DNA of 64,000 nt from positions 512,001 to 576,000 of the forward strand of contig CAWEYL010000001.1 of the NCBI GenBank assembly GCA_963813335.1, in the 5' to 3' direction. The notes beneath the pieces were generated by a model. It did no database searches. It had not been told where the DNA came from and was given only the letters and a program-made list of their open reading frames with translations. Each line of letters begins with the position of its first letter. Within the stretch, counting starts at the first letter, position 1. Position numbers and translations under genes: made by a program. This DNA comes from an uncultured Chloroflexia bacterium (GTDB lineage: Bacteria > Chloroflexota > Limnocylindria > Limnocylindrales > CSP1-4). Shown piece after piece: positions 7,070-15,434 of the stretch.

Positions 7070-8219
7070 CGATAAGGGCGGCGCGGGGGCGCGCGCCGCG
7101 TACCGCGCGGCCGGCGTCGACGTCGCCGGCGGCGAGCGGGCGGTCGAGCTCATGCGCGCCCACGTCGAATCGACGCGGCGGCCGGAGGTCGTCGGCGGCC
7201 TCGGCGGGTTCGGCGGCGCCTTCTCGATCCCGCCGGGCTACCGCGAGCCGCTGCTCATCGCCTCGACGGACGGCGTCGGGACCAAGACCGCGATCGCGAC
7301 GGCCGTCGGCCGGTTCGACACCATCGGCATCGACCTCGTGGCGATGTGCGCCGACGACGTCGTGTGCACGGGCGCCGAGCCGCTGGCGTTCCTCGACTAC
7401 GTGGCCGTCGGGCAGCTCGACCCAGTCGCCGTGGCGGAGCTGGTCGGCGGCGTGGCCGCCGGCTGCCGCGACGCCGGCTGCGCGCTGGTCGGCGGCGAGA
7501 CCGCGGAGCACCCGGGGCTGTTGCCGGCAGACGCGTTCGACCTGGCCGCCACCTGCATCGGGGTCGTGGAGCGCTCGCGCGTGATCGACGGCTCGGCGGC
7601 GAGGGTCGGCGACGTCATCCTGGGCCTGGCGGCTTCCGGGCTCCATTCGAACGGCTATTCGCTGGTCCGGGCACTCGTGGCCCAATGGGGCCTCGACCTC
7701 GGCGCGCCCTACCAGGCGCGCCTGCGCCGGACGCTCGGCGATGCCCCGGCGGAGGCGGCGATCGCCGCCGCGCCGCACGAAGCGATGGCGACCCTCGGCG
7801 AAGTGCTGCTGACCCCGACGCGGATCTACGCGCGGGCCGTGCTCGCGGCCCGCGAGGCGCTCGTCGCGGACGGCGCCGACATCCACGGTCTCGCCCACGT
7901 CACCGGCGGCGGCCTGCCCGGGAATGTGCCGCGCGCGCTGGCGATCGGGCTGGCCGCCCGACTGGATCCGTCCCGCTGGGCGACGCCCTCGGTCATGCGG
8001 CTGTTCGCGGCGCTGGGCGGGCTCGACGACGACGAGCTCCGGGCGACCTTCAACGGCGGCCTCGGCATGGTCATGGTCGTGCCGCCGGCGGCGGCGGCCG
8101 CAGCCATCGCCGCCCTGGCGGGACAGGGGATCCCGGCCAGCGTCGTCGGCGAGGTCGTGGACGCGGCGTCGACCGGCGGCGCGCGCTACGTCGAAGGGCC
8201 CCTGGAGGCGCTCGGGTGA
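7062..8219 (+). CDS. purM: AIR synthetase
   Basis: [40 protein letters not shown] motifs. Confidence 0.96.
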
Positions 8220-10460
8220 GCGGCCGGATCGCCGTCGGCGTGTCGGGTGCCGGCTCGAACCTGCGCGCGCTCCACGCCGCCGCGACCCGCGGCGAGCTCG
8301 GCGGTGACATCGTGCTCGTGTTCGCCGACCGCGCCTGCCCGGCCCTCGACTGGGCGGCGGAGCAGGGGATCGAGACTGCGCTCGTGCCCGGGGGCGACGA
8401 CGCGACGCTCGCCGCGACCCTCGCCGATGCGGCGCCGGACGTCGTGGTCCTCGCCGGGTACATGCGCATCGTCGGCCCCGCCGTGCTGGCGGCCTTCGCG
8501 GGCCGGATCCTCAACACGCACCCGAGCCTGCTGCCGGCGTTCCCCGGCGCCCACGCGGTCCGCGACGCGCTGGCCTACGGCGTGACGATGACGGGCTCCA
8601 CGGTCCACCTCGTCGACGAGACCCTCGACGGCGGCCCGGTGGTCGCCCAGGACGCGGTCGCGGTGCTGCCCGGCGACGACGCCGAGAGCCTCCACGCCCG
8701 GATCCGCGCGGCGGAGCATCGCTTGCTGCCGCGCGCGGTGGCGCTGCTCCTGGCCGACGCGCTCAGCGTCGACGCCGACGGCCGCCATGTCCGCCTCGAC
8801 CTCGAGCGTGCCGACGCCGCCGTCCCGGTGCCGCGCCGCGCGCTCCTGTCGGTCTACGACAAGACCGGCCTCGTCGACCTCGGCCGCGGCCTCGTCGCCC
8901 GCGGATTCGAGCTCGTCTCCACCGGCGGCACGGCACGGACACTCCGCGACGCCGGGCTGCCCGTCTCCGACGTCGGCGCGGTCACCGGCTTCCCCGAGAT
9001 GCTCGACGGCCGGGTCAAGACGCTCCACCCGCGGGTCCACGGCGGGCTGCTCGCCGACCGGCGGCTGGCCGACCACCGCCGGCAGATCCTCGCCGCGGCG
9101 ATCGCCCCGTTCGACCTGGTCGTCTCGAACCTCTATCCGTTCGCCGCCGCGCTCGAGCGGCCGGGGATCACCATCGACGGGCTGATCGAGGAGATCGACA
9201 TCGGCGGGCCGTCGATGGTGCGGGCCGCGGCCAAGAACCACGCCAGCGTCGCGATCGTCACCGATCCCGCGCGCTACGACGCGATCCTCGCCGCCCTCGA
9301 CACGCCCGAGGGCATCGATGCCGCCCTGCGGCGCGCGCTCGCGCTCGAGGCGTTCGCCCACACCGCGGCCTACGACGCCCGCATCGCCGCCGAGTTGCCC
9401 GGTCGCATGGCGGCCGCCGGCCTCGCGCTGCCCGACGAGCCGGGCCTGCCGGGCGCCAGCGACCCGTACCCCGCGCGGCTGACCGTGCCGCTCGAGAAGG
9501 TCGAGACGCTCCGCTACGGCGAGAACCCGCACCAGCCCGCGGCGCGGTACCGGCGTCCCGGCACGACGGCCGCGGACGGCCCGTTCGGCGAGGAGCGCGC
9601 GCCGCTGCAGGGCAAGACCCTCTCGTACAACAACGTGCTGGACGCGGCTGCGGCGGCCGCCCTCGGGCGGGCGCTGCGCGGCCCGGGCGTGGTCATCGTC
9701 AAGCACACCAACCCGTGCGGCGCTGCCGAGCGGGCGACGCTCCTCGAGGCGTGGGAGGCCGCCCTCGAGGCCGACCCGGTCAGCGCGTTCGGTGGGGTCG
9801 TCGCCCTGACCCGCCCGGTCGAGCGGGCCGTCGCCGAGCGGCTCGTCTCGATCTTCCTCGAGATCGTGGTCGCGCCGGCCTTCGACACCGCCGCCCTCGA
9901 GGTGCTGGCCACCAAGCCGAACCTGCGCGTGCTCCTCGACCCGGCCCTCGCCTCGGACGAGCCCGTGCCGGCCGAGGCCGCCACGCCGACCGGCTCGATC
10001 CGGACGGCGGGCGGCGCGGTCCTCGTCACCGCGCCCGACATCGTCAGCGACCTCCCGGGCGTGTGGACCTGCGCGACCCGGCGTGACCCCGACCGATGCC
10101 GAGCAGCTCGACCTCGACCTCGCCTGGCGGCTGGTCCGTGGCGTGACCTCGAACGCGATCGCGCTGGTGAAGGACCGCCGGCTGGTGGGGATGGGGAGCG
10201 GCCAGACCTCGCGCGTCGACGCGGCACGGCAGGCCGTGGCCAAGGCCCAGGCGATGCTCGGCCCGGAGTCGACGGTCGGCGCGGCCTGCGGCTCGGACGC
10301 GTTCTTCCCGTTCCCGGACGCCGTCGAGGCCTGTCTCGCCGCCGGGGTGACGGCCTTCGCCCAGCCCGGCGGCTCGATGCGCGACGCCGAGGCGGTCGCC
10401 GTGGTCGATGCCGCCGGGGGCACGATGCTGCTCACCGGCACGCGCCACTTCCGGCACTGA
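8216..10460 (+). CDS. purH: Fused GAR transformylase (PurN) + IMP cyclohydrolase/AICAR transformylase (PurH); one frameshift ~10085
   Basis: GTGA-overlap start; SGAGSNL, LAGYMRI, NTHPSLLP, LDGGP (PurN) run in frame into RALLSVYDKTG, GRVKTLHP, IDIGGPSM, LRYGENPHQ, KHTNPCG, SDAFFPF, GTRHFRH (PurH). Confidence 0.92.
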
Positions 10461-10520
10461 CGAAGGGCTTGTGAGGGCGGTCCGGCCGCACTACGATCGG
10501 TCGACCTAGCGGAGGTCACG

Positions 10521-11042: not shown

Positions 11043-11627
11043 ATGGACGCATGGGATCGCACCAGGGTCACCGAGGTCGAGGCGCTGCGCGCCATCGCCC
11101 ACCCGCTCCGGGCGCGGCTGCTCGGGGCGCTGCGCCACGACGGCCCGGCGACGGCGACCGAGCTCGCCGGGCGCTTCGGCGAATCGAGCGGCTCGACGAG
11201 CTACCACCTGCGCCAGCTCGAGCGCTACGGCTTTATCGTGGAGGACGAGGAGCAGCGCTCGAAGCGCGAGCGCCGCTGGCGGGCCGCGGCCAAGTTCACC
11301 TCCTGGGACGACGCCGACTTCGTGGACCAGCCGGAGGGCCGCGAGGCGTCGGACGCGATGCACGACCTGCAGGTCCACTGGCAGCTCCGCCGCGACCAGC
11401 AGTGGCGCTCGCGCCGTCTCGACTGGGACCGCGCGTGGCTCGGGGCCGCCGGGACCAGTGATGTCGAAGTCCGGCTGACGCCCGAGGCGACCCGCCGCTT
11501 CTTCGAGCGGTTCCTCGAGCTGGCGCGTGAGGCCGAGGCAGAGACCGAGGCGCAGGGCGACGAAGGCGCCGCGATCGTGTCGATCACCTTGCAGGCCGTG
11601 CCCGTCCACCCGGACGACCTCGTCTGA
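11043..11627 (+). CDS. ArsR-like winged-helix transcriptional regulator
   Basis: ALRAIAHPLRARLL...GPATATELA...STSYHLRQLERYGFI. Confidence 0.88.
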   Translation: MDAWDRTRVTEVEALRAIAHPLRARLLGALRHDGPATATELAGRFGESSGSTSYHLRQLERYGFIVEDEEQRSKRERRWRAAAKFTSWDDADFVDQPEGREASDAMHDLQVHWQLRRDQQWRSRRLDWDRAWLGAAGTSDVEVRLTPEATRRFFERFLELAREAEAETEAQGDEGAAIVSITLQAVPVHPDDLV

Positions 11628-12916
11628 TGCCCGCGACCCCGACCGGCCTCGCCCGCCGGTACGCCTTCCTCACCGCGCTCCGCTGGCTCCCGGTCGGGCT
11701 GACGATCCCGGTCAACGTCCTGCTGATGCAGGCGCGCGGCCTGGACCTTGCGGCGATCGGCGGTCTCTACGCCGTCTACGGCATCGTGACGGTCGCCCTC
11801 GAGCTGCCGACCGGCGGTCTCGCCGACGTCATCGGCCGGCGTGTGGTCCTGGTCGCCGCCGCGCTCGCGACCACCGTGTCGATGGCCGTCGCAGCGTTCG
11901 CGCAGGACGTGCCGTGGTTCCTGCTCGTCATGGTCCTCGGCGCGACCGGCCGCGCGCTCGGCTCCGGACCGCTCGACGCCTGGTACGTCGATGCGACCCA
12001 TGCGCTCGATCCCGACGGGCCGGTGCGCCGCGGCATCGCCCGCGCGCAGAGCGCGGAGGCCCTGGCGCTCGGCATCGGCGCCGTGATCGGCGGCCTGCTG
12101 CCGACGCTGGCCAGCACGCTCTGGCCGACGCTCACCTCGGGCGCGCTGATCGCCCTGTCCATCCCCGTGCTGGCGGCCGCCGCCCTGATGTTCGCGAACG
12201 CCGTCGCCATCGTCCTCCTGGTCCGCGAGGAGCGGCCCGCCTGGACGGGCGTCCGGGCGATCGTCGGCGGGGTCCCGAGCACCGTCCGCGACGGCCTCCG
12301 ACTCGGCGCCGGCGACTCCGTGCTGCGCCGGCTCATGGTCCGGGCGGGCCTCCTTGGCGTGGTGCTCGCCGGCATCGAGCTGCTCGCCCCGGGCACCTTC
12401 GCCGCGCTGCTCGGCGGCGAGGCCCAGGCCAGCCGGGCCTACGGGGTCTTCGCCGCCGCGGCGTTCGGGGCCAGTGCCGCCGGTGCCGCCCTCGCACCGG
12501 CCGTGGCGACGCGGCTCGGCGGCGGCGCGCGGGCCGCTGCGGTGGCCTCGTTCGCGGCCGGGTTCTCCGTCCTGCTCGTCGGCGCGCCGTTCCTCGCCGC
12601 GGTCGGGACCGGATACATCGGCGTCTACCTCCTGCTCGGGATCACCGGGCCGCTCACCTCGGAGCTGCTCCACGCCCGCGTCTCCGCGGCGCAGCGGACG
12701 ACGCTCCTGTCGGTCGAATCGCTCGCACTCCAGGTCGGCGGCGTGGTCGCGAACCTGAGCCTCGGCGCGATCGTCGTCGCGACCTCGCTCGGCTGGGGGT
12801 TCGCGCTCATCGCGATCGCGCTGTTCGCCTCCGCGGCGTTGCTCGTCGGTCGGCCGTTCCGCGAACCGGCGGCGGGCGACGTCCCGCGGCCGGCTGCCGC
12901 CCCCGAGGCCGGCTGA
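11627..12916 (+). CDS. MFS transporter
   Basis: About 12 hydrophobic segments, ELPTGGLADVIGRR motif A; start overlaps the regulator stop codon. Confidence 0.88.
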   Translation: MPATPTGLARRYAFLTALRWLPVGLTIPVNVLLMQARGLDLAAIGGLYAVYGIVTVALELPTGGLADVIGRRVVLVAAALATTVSMAVAAFAQDVPWFLLVMVLGATGRALGSGPLDAWYVDATHALDPDGPVRRGIARAQSAEALALGIGAVIGGLLPTLASTLWPTLTSGALIALSIPVLAAAALMFANAVAIVLLVREERPAWTGVRAIVGGVPSTVRDGLRLGAGDSVLRRLMVRAGLLGVVLAGIELLAPGTFAALLGGEAQASRAYGVFAAAAFGASAAGAALAPAVATRLGGGARAAAVASFAAGFSVLLVGAPFLAAVGTGYIGVYLLLGITGPLTSELLHARVSAAQRTTLLSVESLALQVGGVVANLSLGAIVVATSLGWGFALIAIALFASAALLVGRPFREPAAGDVPRPAAAPEAG

Positions 12917-12946: not shown

Positions 12947-14596
12947 ATGAGCGACCGGCCCCGTTTCTACCTGACCACCTCGATCGCGTACGCGAACAAC
13001 AAGCCGGGCATCCACACGCTCTACGAGGTGATCGGCGCCGACGCGATCGCCCGCTGGCACCGGATGCTCGGTCACGACACGCGCTTCCTGACCGGCACCG
13101 ACGAGCACTCGATCAACATCGCGCAGGCCGCCGTGGACGAGGGACGGCCAACCCGCGAGTTCGTCGACGAGAAGGTGGCGCTCTTCCACGCGTCCGAGGC
13201 CGCCCTCGGCATCGCCCCGGACCGCTTCATCCGGACGACGGATCCTGACCACGTCCGAGCGGCACAGGAGATGGTCCGCCGGGCCTACGCCAACGGCGAC
13301 ATCTACCCCGGCACGTACGAGGGCTGGTACTGCCCCAACGAGGGCTTCCGCAACGCCACCGACGTCATCGAGACCGCCCAGGGGACCATCTGCCCGAACC
13401 ACCCCGGCGTCCCGCTCCAGTGGCTGACCGAGCGGAACTGGTTCTTCCGGTTGTCCGCCTACCAGGAGCGCCTCGAGCGGCACTTCGCGGAGCACGACGA
13501 CTTCGTCATGCCGACGTTCCGGCGCAACGAGATGCTCGGGTTCATCCGCAGCGGCCTCGAGGACTTCTCGATCAGCCGCGAGCGGACGCCAGGGGATTGG
13601 GGGATCCCGTTCCCGATCCGCGAAGACGGCTCGCCGTCGCAGCTGCCCGACGGGACGTGGGACCCGGCCGCCGGCAAGATCTACGTCTGGTACGACGCGC
13701 TGATCAACTACATCACGGGCGCCGGCTTCCCCGACGACCCGGCGGCGTTCGCGCGCTGGTGGCCGGCCGACCTGCACGTCATCGGCAAGGACATCGCCCG
13801 GTTCCACTCGATCTTCTGGCCGGCGATGCTGTGGAGCGCCGGCCTCGAGGCGCCTCGCCAGGTGTGGGTGCATGGCTGGCTGCTGGCGGCCGGCGGCGAG
13901 CGGATGAGCAAGAGCCGCGGCAACTTCCTCGACCCCGACGACTTCGTGGCCGCCTTCGGCCAGGACGGCGCGCGCTACGTCGCGCTCCGCGAGGTGCCCT
14001 TCGACCGAGATGCCGAGGTCTCGTGGGACTCGTTCGTGCGCCGCTACAACGCCGACCTCGCCAACGACTTCGGCAACCTCGTCAATCGCACGGTCAGCAT
14101 GGTCAACCGCTACCTCGACGGCGAGCGGCCCGATCCCGTGCCGCCGACCGACGGCCGGCTGTCCTTCGACTGGGTCGCCATCCCTGGGATCTACGGCGCC
14201 GAGATCGAGAGCTGCCTGCTCCACGACGCGCTCAGCCTGCTGATCGAGACCTTCGTGCCCGCGGCGAACCGCATGGTCGACGCCGAGCGGCCGTGGGACC
14301 TGGCCAAGGCCTGGAAGGCGGGCGACGAGGGGGCGGGCGAACGCCTCCGCGGCGTCCTCGGCGACCTCGTGGAGGCCTGTCGGCTCGTCGGCCTGGCAGT
14401 CACGCCGTTCATGCCCGCGACCGGTCCGCGGGTCCTCGCCCAGCTCGGCTACGACTTCCCGTACAGCCCGGACGGTAACGGCGGGCCGCCCATCCTCGAC
14501 GAGCTGGCCTGGGGCCGCCACGCCGGCGAGCCCGGGCGGGTGACCGCCCCCGAGCCGCTCTTCCCGCGGCTCGACGCGGAGCCCGGGCCGGGCTGA
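12947..14596 (+). CDS. metG: Methionyl-tRNA synthetase (short form, no C-terminal Trbp domain; altered HIGH motif GIHT)
   Basis: FYLTTSIAYAN, FLTGTDEH, FIRTTD, YVWYDALINY, IGKDIARFHSIFWPAML, VHGWL, RMSKSRGN, YNADLANDFGNLVNR. Confidence 0.95.
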   Translation: MSDRPRFYLTTSIAYANNKPGIHTLYEVIGADAIARWHRMLGHDTRFLTGTDEHSINIAQAAVDEGRPTREFVDEKVALFHASEAALGIAPDRFIRTTDPDHVRAAQEMVRRAYANGDIYPGTYEGWYCPNEGFRNATDVIETAQGTICPNHPGVPLQWLTERNWFFRLSAYQERLERHFAEHDDFVMPTFRRNEMLGFIRSGLEDFSISRERTPGDWGIPFPIREDGSPSQLPDGTWDPAAGKIYVWYDALINYITGAGFPDDPAAFARWWPADLHVIGKDIARFHSIFWPAMLWSAGLEAPRQVWVHGWLLAAGGERMSKSRGNFLDPDDFVAAFGQDGARYVALREVPFDRDAEVSWDSFVRRYNADLANDFGNLVNRTVSMVNRYLDGERPDPVPPTDGRLSFDWVAIPGIYGAEIESCLLHDALSLLIETFVPAANRMVDAERPWDLAKAWKAGDEGAGERLRGVLGDLVEACRLVGLAVTPFMPATGPRVLAQLGYDFPYSPDGNGGPPILDELAWGRHAGEPGRVTAPEPLFPRLDAEPGPG

Positions 14597-14603
14597 CCGC
14601 GGG

Positions 14604-15434
14604 ATGCGCCTGGTCGACAGCCACTGCCACCTCAACGCCGACCGCTTCGAGGGCGATGCCGACCTCGTGATCGGCGGCGCCCGGCTGGCTGGCGTCGAGC
14701 GGATCCTGGTCCCCGGCTGGAACGTCGCCTCGTGCGAGCGCGCCCTCGCGCTCGTCGACCGCTTCCCGTGGCTCGACGCGGCGGTGGGGGTCCATCCCCA
14801 CGATGCCGCGAAGGTCGACGACGCCGCCTGGGCGGGTATCGCTGCCCTCGCCACGGACGACCGCGTGGTCGCGATCGGCGAGACCGGCCTCGACTACGAC
14901 CGGGTCTTCAGCCCCATCGACGACCAGCTCGGCAACCTGCGCCGGAACCTGGCGCTCGCGCTCGAGACGAGCAAGCCGGCCATCCTGCACTGCCGCTCCG
15001 GCGACGGCCGGCGGGACGCCCAGGACGCCCTCCTCGACGAGCTCCGCGCGGCCGGCGTCGGCGACGCCCGCTGGGCCGCGGCCTTCGGCGAGCGACCGCC
15101 GGCGGTCATCCACTCATATTCGGGCCCGCTCGACTACGCCCGGCAGGTGATCGACCTGGGGCTCGCGGTCAGTTTCTCGGGGCTCGTCTTCCGGGCGGGG
15201 GAGGAGGCGTCGGCGGCCGTCGCCGCGCTGGTGCCCCTCGACCGGCTGCTGACCGAGACCGATTCGCCGTTCCTGGCACCACCCGGCGCACCACGGTCGC
15301 GCAACGAACCCGAGTGGGTTCACGTCACATCGTCGTGGCTTGCTGACCAACGGCAGGTCACGATAGAGGAACTCGGCCCGTCACTCGTCGCCGCATATGA
15401 TCGACTCTTCCCGAGTCGTCGGAGGACACCGTGA
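14604..15434 (+). CDS. tatD: TatD family DNase
   Basis: DSHCHL, GVHPH, IGETGLD, ETDSPFLAP, NEP; conserved metG-tatD linkage. Confidence 0.93.
   Translation: MRLVDSHCHLNADRFEGDADLVIGGARLAGVERILVPGWNVASCERALALVDRFPWLDAAVGVHPHDAAKVDDAAWAGIAALATDDRVVAIGETGLDYDRVFSPIDDQLGNLRRNLALALETSKPAILHCRSGDGRRDAQDALLDELRAAGVGDARWAAAFGERPPAVIHSYSGPLDYARQVIDLGLAVSFSGLVFRAGEEASAAVAALVPLDRLLTETDSPFLAPPGAPRSRNEPEWVHVTSSWLADQRQVTIEELGPSLVAAYDRLFPSRRRTP

What the first reader, a model, noticed from the sequence alone, without database searches (positions are those of the whole stretch)
13004..13018. MetRS with an H/G-swapped class I signature (GIHT in place of HIGH/HIGT)
Seen: FYLTTSIAYANNKP-GIHT-LYEVIGADAIAR aligns without gaps to the usual ...YxNxxP-HIGH/HIGT-AYE. 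Positions 1 and 3 of the ATP-binding motif are exchanged, and KMSKS reads RMSKS. The rest of the enzyme is intact, free of frameshifts and in the housekeeping metG-tatD context. The swap needs several substitutions in two codons (ggc atc cac), so it is unlikely to be a base-calling slip. Known: the analogous HXGH to GXHH swap in some type-2 IleRS gives mupirocin hyper-resistance. Inference: an independent origin of the swapped motif in MetRS, possibly resistance to an unknown natural MetRS inhibitor. I do not know of a description of this in MetRS but cannot search.
Basis: partly seen in the sequence, partly recalled or inferred. Interest (0 to 1): 0.85.

Follow-up and report, generated by a model that had tools for sequence, protein, structure and literature searches.

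The report
MetRS with relocated signature histidine
The only methionyl-tRNA synthetase of this soil and wetland Chloroflexota bacterium has the key histidine of its ATP-binding signature moved two residues along, a change shared by its whole bacterial class and so far described only for isoleucyl-tRNA synthetase.

Summary
Window 13004-13018 encodes P-G-I-H-T where MetRS normally has P-H-x-G-x, inside an intact 549-aa metG (12947-14596) followed by a tatD-family gene.

It is not a private oddity or an error. I collected 160 distinct MetRS sequences from the same bacterial class (record titles: Candidatus Limnocylindria, Chloroflexota). All 160 have His at motif position 3 and none has His at position 1 (G 140, P 14, A 6). 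All 143 canonical relatives compared have H at position 1 and G at position 3.

The swapped enzymes are compatible with one clade: holding them together gave a better likelihood (AU p 0.84). The gene is the only metG found in this genome and in 5 of 5 high-quality relatives. It is under purifying selection (dN/dS 0.18-0.32). It keeps 16 of 21 Met-AMP-contacting residues of the M. tuberculosis enzyme.

Best reading: one ancient relocation of the catalytic histidine, parallel to the G/AXHH motif of IleRS2. The same genome's IleRS also carries that motif (GVHH).

The resistance idea has no support here. No natural MetRS inhibitor turned up, and REP8839 competes with methionine, not ATP. I found no prior description in MetRS. 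It is a new variant of a known kind.

The parts
12947..14596 (+). metG: methionyl-tRNA synthetase, 549 aa, the only MetRS found in the genome
   Evidence: ORF. TIGR00398 371.6 bits (cut-off 336.35) and PF09334 286.1 bits. Only match over the metG cut-off in G000. AF2 model pLDDT 95.1, pTM 0.94. Foldseek top hits are MetRS 2x1l and 6ax8, TM 0.92-0.93 normalised by target.
13004..13018 (+). P20-G21-I22-H23-T24: class I signature with His moved from position 1 to position 3
   Evidence: gapless alignment. Position 23 is H in 160 of 160 swapped sequences against G in 143 of 143 canonical. Position 21 is G140/P14/A6 against H in 143 of 143. The motif codons vary synonymously among relatives (GGC/GGT/GGG, CAC/CAT, ACG/ACC).
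13274..13276 (+). V110 codon: the only other clade-defining column
   Evidence: V150/I9/L1 in 160 swapped sequences against F44/W37/L31/I14/V6 among 143 canonical. It lies in model helix 100-115. Contact with the motif was not established.
13901..13915 (+). RMSKS, the second class I signature (KMSKS)
   Evidence: R136/K24 in swapped sequences, K127/R13 in canonical. The second Lys is K in 146 of 160.
14604..15434 (+). tatD/ychF-family metal-dependent hydrolase, 8 bases downstream of metG (context)
   Evidence: TIGR00010 E 4.5e-49, 167.2 bits, below the curated cut-off of 206.

Best explanation
This is the functional housekeeping methionyl-tRNA synthetase of a Limnocylindria (Chloroflexota) bacterium. 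In an ancestor of the class, the invariant first histidine of the H-x-G-x signature at the N-terminus of the first Rossmann helix was lost, and a histidine appeared at the normally glycine third position. That takes at least four nucleotide changes. I infer that His23 now supplies the imidazole that His1 normally provides to the adenine/ATP site, as crystal structures showed for the G/AXHH motif of IleRS2. The small residue at position 21 (G, A or P) and a local shift of the helix tip would make room for the adenine. Shown here: the motif, its class-wide conservation, compatibility with a single origin, sole-copy status, purifying selection, and conservation of the rest of the active site. Inferred: the catalytic role of His23 and any structural compensation, including V110.
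For: (1) Motif and gapless alignment.

(2) Conservation. All 29 of 29 loci from same-genus and same-order genomes have G[ILV]HT, as do 26 of 26 further same-family loci. Twenty of 20 loci of family f4 have [AP]LHS, and 15 of 15 alignable f3/f5 loci have GLH[HYF]. All 119 of 119 stretches from a public-genome pattern scan are MetRS of this clade. Pooled, there are 160 distinct sequences, with His at position 3 in all 160 and His at position 1 in none.

(3) Relatives outside the class. Of 40 Chloroflexota loci, 38 have H-x-G-x. Of 130 motif-covering proteins among the 150 best representatives of 1.84 billion, 121 have H-x-G-x, and the other 9 are close kin with G[LV]HT.

(4) Origin. With the motif columns removed, f1+f2, f4 and f3 are each supported at 100% SH-aLRT, and f4 joins f1+f2 at 99%. 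Holding all 41 swapped rows as one clade gave a log-likelihood 41.8 higher than the free quick tree, p-AU 0.839.

(5) Function. There is one metG in G000 and one in each of 5 high-quality relatives (93-99% complete). dN/dS is 0.18-0.32 against 13 relatives. Of the 21 M. tuberculosis MetRS residues within 3 A of Met-AMP, 16 are identical here, 2 are conservative, and the 3 that differ are the motif itself.

(6) Mechanistic precedent. In IleRS2 GXHH structures the third His N-epsilon-2 sits where that of the first His does, and activity is only mildly reduced (PMC10485003, passages seen). In M. tuberculosis MetRS, His18 bonds adenine N7 and Gly20 lies within 3 A of adenine C6/N1 (PMC6038951, passages).

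(7) Position 4 varies freely in canonical relatives while position 1 is invariant. So the function that had to be replaced is that of His1.
Against: There are no biochemical data, and no coordinates were available to me, so the geometry of His23 is not shown. The AF2 model used an alignment made mostly of canonical sequences.

G000 is only 81% complete, so a second metG in the missing part cannot be excluded for this genome itself.

The free quick tree needed 2 changes of state, with canonical family f19 in an unresolved three-way fork (88% SH-aLRT) with the two swapped groups. A single origin is favoured and not rejected, but it is not proven.

In IleRS1 the same swap abolishes activity, so tolerance in a MetRS scaffold is not self-evident.

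Nine sampled species of one genus in the class (g23) carry only a different MetRS that gives weak matches (E 1e-28 to 1e-33). In the three such loci I could read it has canonical HLGH, and a family search in two of those genomes found no other metG. So the swapped enzyme is replaceable.
Confidence: 0.8

Rival explanations
1. The swap is an adaptation that makes MetRS insensitive to a natural inhibitor binding the ATP/adenylate site, as GXHH does for mupirocin in IleRS2.
For: The analogy with IleRS2: G/AXHH raises the Ki for mupirocin up to 1000-fold at little catalytic cost (PMC10485003, passages). A His at position 3 sits next to the adenine pocket. The organisms come from soil and wetland metagenomes, habitats rich in antibiotic producers (my general knowledge). 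An MFS transporter and an ArsR-type regulator lie just upstream, but nothing links them to metG.
Against: No natural MetRS inhibitor appeared in the review passages I read; only synthetic ones did, and REP8839 competes with methionine, not ATP. The trait is ancient, class-wide and in the sole copy, not a second resistant paralogue or a patchy acquisition. The GXHH IleRS is present in 29 of 29 published Chloroflexota loci, including families with canonical MetRS, so the two swaps do not track each other. Nothing here measures inhibitor sensitivity.
Confidence: 0.1
2. His23 does not replace His1. It takes over the alpha-phosphate contact of the fourth-position His, shifted by one residue, or it acts through a rearranged KMSKS loop, and the His1 function is simply lost or supplied elsewhere.
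For: In this window position 4 is Thr, not His. In M. tuberculosis MetRS, His21 bonds the alpha-phosphate. R replaces K at the first KMSKS position in 136 of 160 swapped sequences, against 13 of 143 canonical.
Against: Position 4 is already non-His in 49 of 143 canonical relatives, which all keep His1. The f3 branch has His at both positions 3 and 4 (GLHH). The IleRS2 structures show the third His mimicking the first.
Confidence: 0.12
3. It is an artefact or a decaying gene: an assembly or base-calling error, or an inactive MetRS-like paralogue.
For: The same window has an apparent frameshift in purH, so the assembly is not error-free. G000 is 81% complete. The NCBIfam full-length model NF008900 scores 489.7 bits, below its 598 cut-off.
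Against: The motif is reproduced in 160 distinct sequences from independent assemblies and in contigs of 3 independent runs. The ORF is intact, dN/dS is 0.18-0.32, and the active-site residues are conserved. No other metG was found in 5 of 5 high-quality relatives.
Confidence: 0.01

Closest known systems
IleRS2 with the non-canonical G/AXHH signature (Brkic et al. 2023, Nat Commun 14:5498, PMC10485003)
   Same: Both are class Ia synthetases. In both, the His of position 1 and the Gly of position 3 are exchanged, position 1 becomes Gly or sometimes Ala, the motif is fixed in whole clades, and the enzyme remains the working copy.
   Different: The enzyme is different (MetRS, a MetRS1-like scaffold). 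Position 4 is Thr here (T/S/H/Y/F across the class) instead of the conserved His. Pro also occurs at position 1. There is no known inhibitor and no resistance phenotype. Compensating structural shifts are unknown. In the passages I saw, that paper calls the exchange exclusive to IleRS2 as against IleRS1 and mentions MetRS only for a Gly-to-Pro mutant. I could not see its supplements.
Canonical MetRS of M. smegmatis and M. tuberculosis (PDB 2x1l, 5xet, 6ax8)
   Same: About 40% identity, E 1e-114 to 1e-116, TM 0.92-0.93. The domain order is the same, there is no C-terminal dimerisation domain, and 16 of 21 Met-AMP contact residues are identical.
   Different: H-[IV]-G-H against G-I-H-T. W107 (M. 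tuberculosis numbering, from my alignment) corresponds to V110. The connective-peptide region is longer here.
Canonical Chloroflexota MetRS of family f19 (loci L107-L109, HLG[FY])
   Same: These are the nearest canonical relatives in the tree (44-49% identity), in an unresolved fork with the swapped groups. They share a non-His position 4 with some swapped enzymes (GLHY, GLHF).
   Different: They keep His at position 1 and Gly at position 3.

Membership tests
Methionyl-tRNA synthetase (TIGR00398 / PF09334) | Profile score over the curated cut-off | tested here: met
   TIGR00398 371.6 bits against 336.35; PF09334 286.1 against 20.1. The full-length equivalog NF008900 scores 489.7, below 598.
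Methionyl-tRNA synthetase (TIGR00398 / PF09334) | Class I HIGH signature (H-x-G-H/x) at the N-terminus of the first Rossmann helix | tested here: not met
   G-I-H-T at aa 21-24. His is present but at position 3.
Methionyl-tRNA synthetase (TIGR00398 / PF09334) | KMSKS signature | tested here: met
   RMSKS at aa 319-323. R also occurs in 13 of 143 canonical relatives.
Methionyl-tRNA synthetase (TIGR00398 / PF09334) | Methionine and AMP pocket residues | tested here: met
   Of 21 M. tuberculosis MetRS residues within 3 A of Met-AMP, 16 are identical, 2 are conservative, and 3 (the motif) differ.
Methionyl-tRNA synthetase (TIGR00398 / PF09334) | MetRS fold | tested here: met
   AF2 pLDDT 95.1, pTM 0.94. 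The Foldseek top 49 listed hits are all MetRS, with 2x1l_A at TM 0.92.
Methionyl-tRNA synthetase (TIGR00398 / PF09334) | Charges tRNA-Met with methionine | not testable with these tools
   Inferred from sole-copy status and purifying selection.
Non-canonical G/AXHH class I signature (described for IleRS2) | Gly or Ala at position 1 and His at position 3 | tested here: met
   G21 and H23. Across the class, position 1 is G140/P14/A6 and position 3 is H in 160 of 160.
Non-canonical G/AXHH class I signature (described for IleRS2) | His retained at position 4 | tested here: not met
   T24 in the window. Across the class: T116/H21/S20/Y2/F1. Only the f3 branch has GLHH.
Non-canonical G/AXHH class I signature (described for IleRS2) | Raises resistance to an active-site inhibitor | not testable with these tools
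Non-canonical G/AXHH class I signature (described for IleRS2) | Shift of the helix-alpha-1 tip that makes room for His at position 3 | not testable with these tools
I could only establish that helix 22-40 starts at I22.

The most novel reading that the evidence does not exclude
The relocation of the signature histidine in MetRS is adaptive. On this reading, Limnocylindria fixed it under pressure from a still unknown natural compound that occupies the adenine/ATP site of MetRS, which would make the whole class intrinsically insensitive. It would also mean that swapping His and Gly is a general, repeatedly used escape route for class Ia synthetases, since IleRS2 and MetRS both carry it in the same cell.
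Probability: 0.1. Interest if true: 0.8.

Novelty: new variant of a known kind. Interest (0 to 1): 0.55.

Why it matters
The HIGH signature defines class I aminoacyl-tRNA synthetases. Its first His and third Gly are treated as near-immutable. The one described exception, G/AXHH in IleRS2, was presented as extraordinary, and it could not be engineered into IleRS1.

A second natural case, in a different enzyme and fixed in an entire abundant soil and freshwater bacterial class, has three consequences:
- The catalytic histidine can be relocated on more than one scaffold.
- It provides a natural pair for dissecting what makes the swap tolerable: swapped Limnocylindria enzymes against their canonical f19-like sisters, with V110 as a candidate compensating change.
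- It cautions annotation pipelines and motif-based filters. Some of these proteins are named only 'class I tRNA ligase family protein'.

Whether the swap changes inhibitor sensitivity is open.

Tried and rejected
(1) Looking for the swap outside the class was inconclusive.
It gave 119 stretches, all of this clade, so it says nothing about other phyla.
- A metagenome scan for the swapped form with the flanks of the common '...AYTT' MetRS subfamily (I-x-Y-x-N-x-x-P-[GA]-x-H-H-x-[YF]-T) gave 4 stretches. All are non-coding chance matches, with stops and no tblastn match to MetRS. This is a narrow negative only.
- The representatives search lists only the best 150 of 16,920 hits. The f4 and f3 variants did not appear there as separate representatives.

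(2) Pseudogene or artefact: rejected (see rival explanations).

(3) RMSKS as part of the oddity: rejected.

(4) Linkage between the IleRS and MetRS swaps: rejected. The GXHH IleRS is widespread in Chloroflexota families with canonical MetRS.

From the order of secondary-structure elements I could not decide whether helix 100-115 touches the motif.

(7) Loose ends that read canonical motifs (P-H-I-G-H, P-H-V-G-T) belong to contigs that match the window only in the conserved part downstream. I read them as MetRS genes of other organisms in the same metagenomes.

(8) Schmitt et al. 1995 (PMC307466) is not held. I know it only as cited in the passages of PMC10485003.

(9) Supplements of papers were closed. 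The supplement of Brkic et al. might hold a survey of other synthetases that I could not see.

Full report
WHAT IS THERE. The window encodes an uninterrupted 549-aa protein at 12947..14596 on the + strand. Bases 13004-13018 read ccg ggc atc cac acg, which is P20-G21-I22-H23-T24. The protein scores 371.6 bits on the metG model TIGR00398 (cut-off 336.35) and 286.1 bits on Pfam PF09334. The full-length NCBIfam equivalog NF008900 scores 489.7 bits, below its 598-bit cut-off. That may be why some relatives are named only 'class I tRNA ligase family protein' in public records.

The second class I signature reads RMSKS at aa 319-323. Eight bases downstream lies a TatD/YchF-family hydrolase gene (14604-15434; TIGR00010 E 4.5e-49, below its cut-off). 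Upstream are an MFS transporter (11627-12916) and an ArsR-type regulator (11043-11627).

THE ALIGNMENT IS SOUND. The closest solved structures are the MetRS of M. smegmatis (2x1l, E 1.8e-116) and M. tuberculosis (5xet, 5xgq, 6ax8, E about 1e-114). HMMER aligns residues 6 to beyond 100 without a gap, with the strongly conserved flanks (T-T-x-I-A-Y-x-N and Y-E-x-I-x-x-D-A-I-A-R) in register. G21, I22, H23 and T24 therefore fall on H, V/I, G and H of the signature.

An AlphaFold2 model (79-sequence alignment, pLDDT 95.1, pTM 0.94) starts the first Rossmann helix at residue 22. Foldseek finds only MetRS among the listed hits (2x1l_A TM 0.92, 6ax8 TM 0.93, normalised by target).

NOT AN ERROR, NOT PRIVATE.
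- Same genus and same order: 29 of 29 loci show G[ILV]HT.
- Class sample: 151 genomes searched, 146 with a match (this tally includes 7 unpublished genomes from which I fetched nothing).
- Further same-family loci: 26 of 26 show G[ILV]HT.
- Family f4: 20 of 20 loci show [AP]LHS with KMSK[TS].
- Families f3 and f5: 15 of 15 alignable loci show GLH[HYF] with RLS[KR]S.
All 119 are MetRS of this clade (GLHT 95, GLHH 13, GVHT 7, GLHY 2, GIHT 1, GLHF 1). The 80 titles listed were Chloroflexota or Limnocylindria apart from one labelled only 'bacterium'.

After removing identical sequences, 160 distinct swapped enzymes remain. Position 1 is G 140, P 14, A 6. Position 3 is H in 160 of 160. Position 4 is T 116, H 21, S 20, Y 2, F 1.

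Contigs of three independent wetland or soil runs cover the motif; a fourth run laid (X3) had no depth over the motif. They differ only by two synonymous changes and an Ile-to-Val change. Among 13 relatives the motif codons vary synonymously while the residues stay the same. Gene-wide dN/dS is 0.18-0.32 by NG86, with dS partly saturated.

THE CONTRAST GROUP.
- Outside the class, 38 of 40 fetched Chloroflexota MetRS loci have H-x-G-x. The other two (family f42) read S[TA]GS.
- Of the 150 best representatives from 1.84 billion proteins, 130 cover the motif. Of these, 121 have H-x-G-x and 9 have G[LV]HT; the 9 are close kin (at least 45% identical).
- Pooled, there are 143 canonical sequences, with H at position 1 and G at position 3 in all 143. 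Position 4 is H 94, T 20, F 12, S 8, N 6 and others.

So the Thr at position 4 and the Arg of RMSKS (R in 13 of 143 canonical sequences) are ordinary variation. Only the positions 1 and 3 exchange is special. A scan for columns fixed in the swapped group and rare in the canonical group found just two: position 23 itself and position 110. Position 110 is V 150, I 9, L 1 in the swapped group and F 44, W 37, L 31, I 14, V 6 in the canonical group.

ONE ORIGIN? I built a tree of 105 MetRS sequences (IQ-TREE quick search, LG+G4, motif columns removed). It supports f1+f2 (100), f4 (100), f4 with f1+f2 (99) and f3 (100). It leaves f3, the f4/f1/f2 group and the canonical family f19 (HLG[FY]) in an unresolved fork (88). 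On that free tree the trait needs 2 changes.

Forcing all 41 swapped rows into one clade gave a log-likelihood 41.8 higher than the free quick search had found, with p-AU 0.839. A single origin at the base of the class is therefore the better-fitting hypothesis, but it is not proven. All other MetRS examined are canonical, so the swapped state is the derived one.

IS IT THE WORKING ENZYME? A protein search and a family search of the window's genome (2.54 Mb, 7 contigs, 81% complete) found one metG. The other matches are LeuRS, ValRS, IleRS and CysRS.

Five of 5 high-quality relatives from f1, f2 and f4 (93-99% complete) also have a single match over the metG cut-off.

I mapped the M. tuberculosis Met-AMP contact list (Table 3 of PMC6038951, passages seen) through the alignment. 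Sixteen of 21 residues are identical in the window protein. Two are conservative (A9 to S12; F292 to W311, which is Trp in M. smegmatis too). The three that differ are H18, G20 and H21 themselves.

HOW IT LIKELY WORKS. In M. tuberculosis MetRS, His18 N-epsilon-2 bonds adenine N7, Gly20 lies within 3 A of adenine C6 and N1, and His21 bonds the alpha-phosphate.

For IleRS2, Brkic et al. (PMC10485003; passages) showed four things:
- G/AXHH enzymes are active.
- The N-epsilon-2 of the third His occupies the place of that of the first His.
- A 1.7 A shift of the helix tip makes room for a side chain at the Gly position.
- IleRS1, which lacks that shift, is inactivated by the swap.

By analogy I infer that His23 replaces His1 in the Limnocylindria MetRS. 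The argument from this data set is that position 4 is dispensable in canonical relatives while position 1 never varies. The function that must be rescued is therefore that of His1. Whether V110, in place of a bulky W, F or L, is the room-making change could not be tested.

THE RESISTANCE IDEA. Nothing here supports it. The trait is ancient, class-wide and in the sole copy. The review passages I saw list only synthetic MetRS inhibitors, and REP8839 competes with methionine, not ATP. It remains possible at low probability.

The same genome's only IleRS carries the published non-canonical motif, GVHH. But that IleRS motif is found in 29 of 29 published Chloroflexota loci from many families, including families whose MetRS is canonical (one further locus from an unpublished genome agrees and is not counted). 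So the MetRS swap arose in a lineage that already had a swapped IleRS, but the two do not track each other.

NOVELTY. Full-text searches found 'GXHH' in the Brkic paper and in two papers whose titles are unrelated to tRNA synthetases; I did not open those two. No paper holds both 'Limnocylindria' and 'aminoacyl-tRNA synthetase'. A search for 'methionyl-tRNA synthetase', 'HIGH motif' and 'non-canonical' gave nothing relevant by title. Subscription journals and supplements were not searchable.

I rate it a new variant of a known kind: a second enzyme family with the relocated signature histidine, here with a non-His position 4.

LIMITS.
- There is no biochemistry and there are no coordinates.
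- The survey beyond Chloroflexota is incomplete.
- The tree came from a quick search.
- The window's genome is incomplete.

Noticed in passing
G000 contig C1 646549-650181 (+), outside the window; locus L280: The genome's only IleRS (TIGR00392, 636.7 bits summed) carries the published non-canonical signature: ...NNPM-GVHH-AWGR. The same [GA]-x-H-H is in 29 of 29 published Chloroflexota IleRS loci fetched, including families with canonical MetRS. LeuRS and ValRS of G000 have canonical HIGH, and CysRS has HIGN.
   Followed up: partly
L141 (G273), L142 (G281), L279 (G297): MetRS of Chloroflexota family f42 has no His in the signature at all (S-T-G-S or S-A-G-S) and reads KGSKS with an insertion after it. 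It is the only metG found in G273 (87% complete) and G281 (90%). G297 (95% complete, 10% contamination) also has a 598-aa second MetRS.
   Followed up: partly
L096, L097, L103 (genus g23, family f3 of the same class): Nine sampled g23 species gave only weak matches (E 1e-28 to 1e-33) to the swapped MetRS. In the three of their loci I could read, the enzyme is a roughly 600-aa MetRS about 30% identical, with canonical HLGH and KFSTS. A fourth fetched locus, L104, gave no readable MetRS frame. A family search found no other metG in G086 and G055. Other g23 species have the GLHH enzyme. This looks like replacement by a different MetRS type.
   Followed up: partly
window 8186-10474 and 10083-10460 (+): purN (Formyl_trans_N) and purH (MGS plus AICARFT_IMPCHas, model positions 1-262) lie in one open frame without a stop between them. 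The last part of purH (model positions 259-311) is in another frame from 10083. This is an apparent frameshift near 10.08-10.1 kb, which could be real or an assembly indel.
   Followed up: no
window 11043-11627 and 11627-12916 (+): An ArsR/SmtB-type regulator and an MFS transporter (PF07690; weak likeness to TetA(P), E 2.5e-4) lie directly upstream of metG on the same strand. No link to metG was shown.
   Followed up: no
L126 (G359), L145 (G415), L146 (G324): Genomes of Chloroflexota family f38 hold a second, divergent MetRS-like copy (36-41% identical to the window's, canonical H[VI]GH, KISKS) beside their main HIGT enzyme. L146 has an internal TAG.
   Followed up: no
P0098, P0110: Some close relatives are named only 'class I tRNA ligase family protein' in NCBI records. 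This is consistent with the full-length metG equivalog model scoring below its cut-off.
   Followed up: no
G046 contig C7 1599912-1601328: The metG of this 98%-complete f4 genome matches the family model in two adjacent pieces (model positions 2-406 and 412-505, open frames of 531 and 156 aa). It is possibly a frameshift or a split gene.
   Followed up: no
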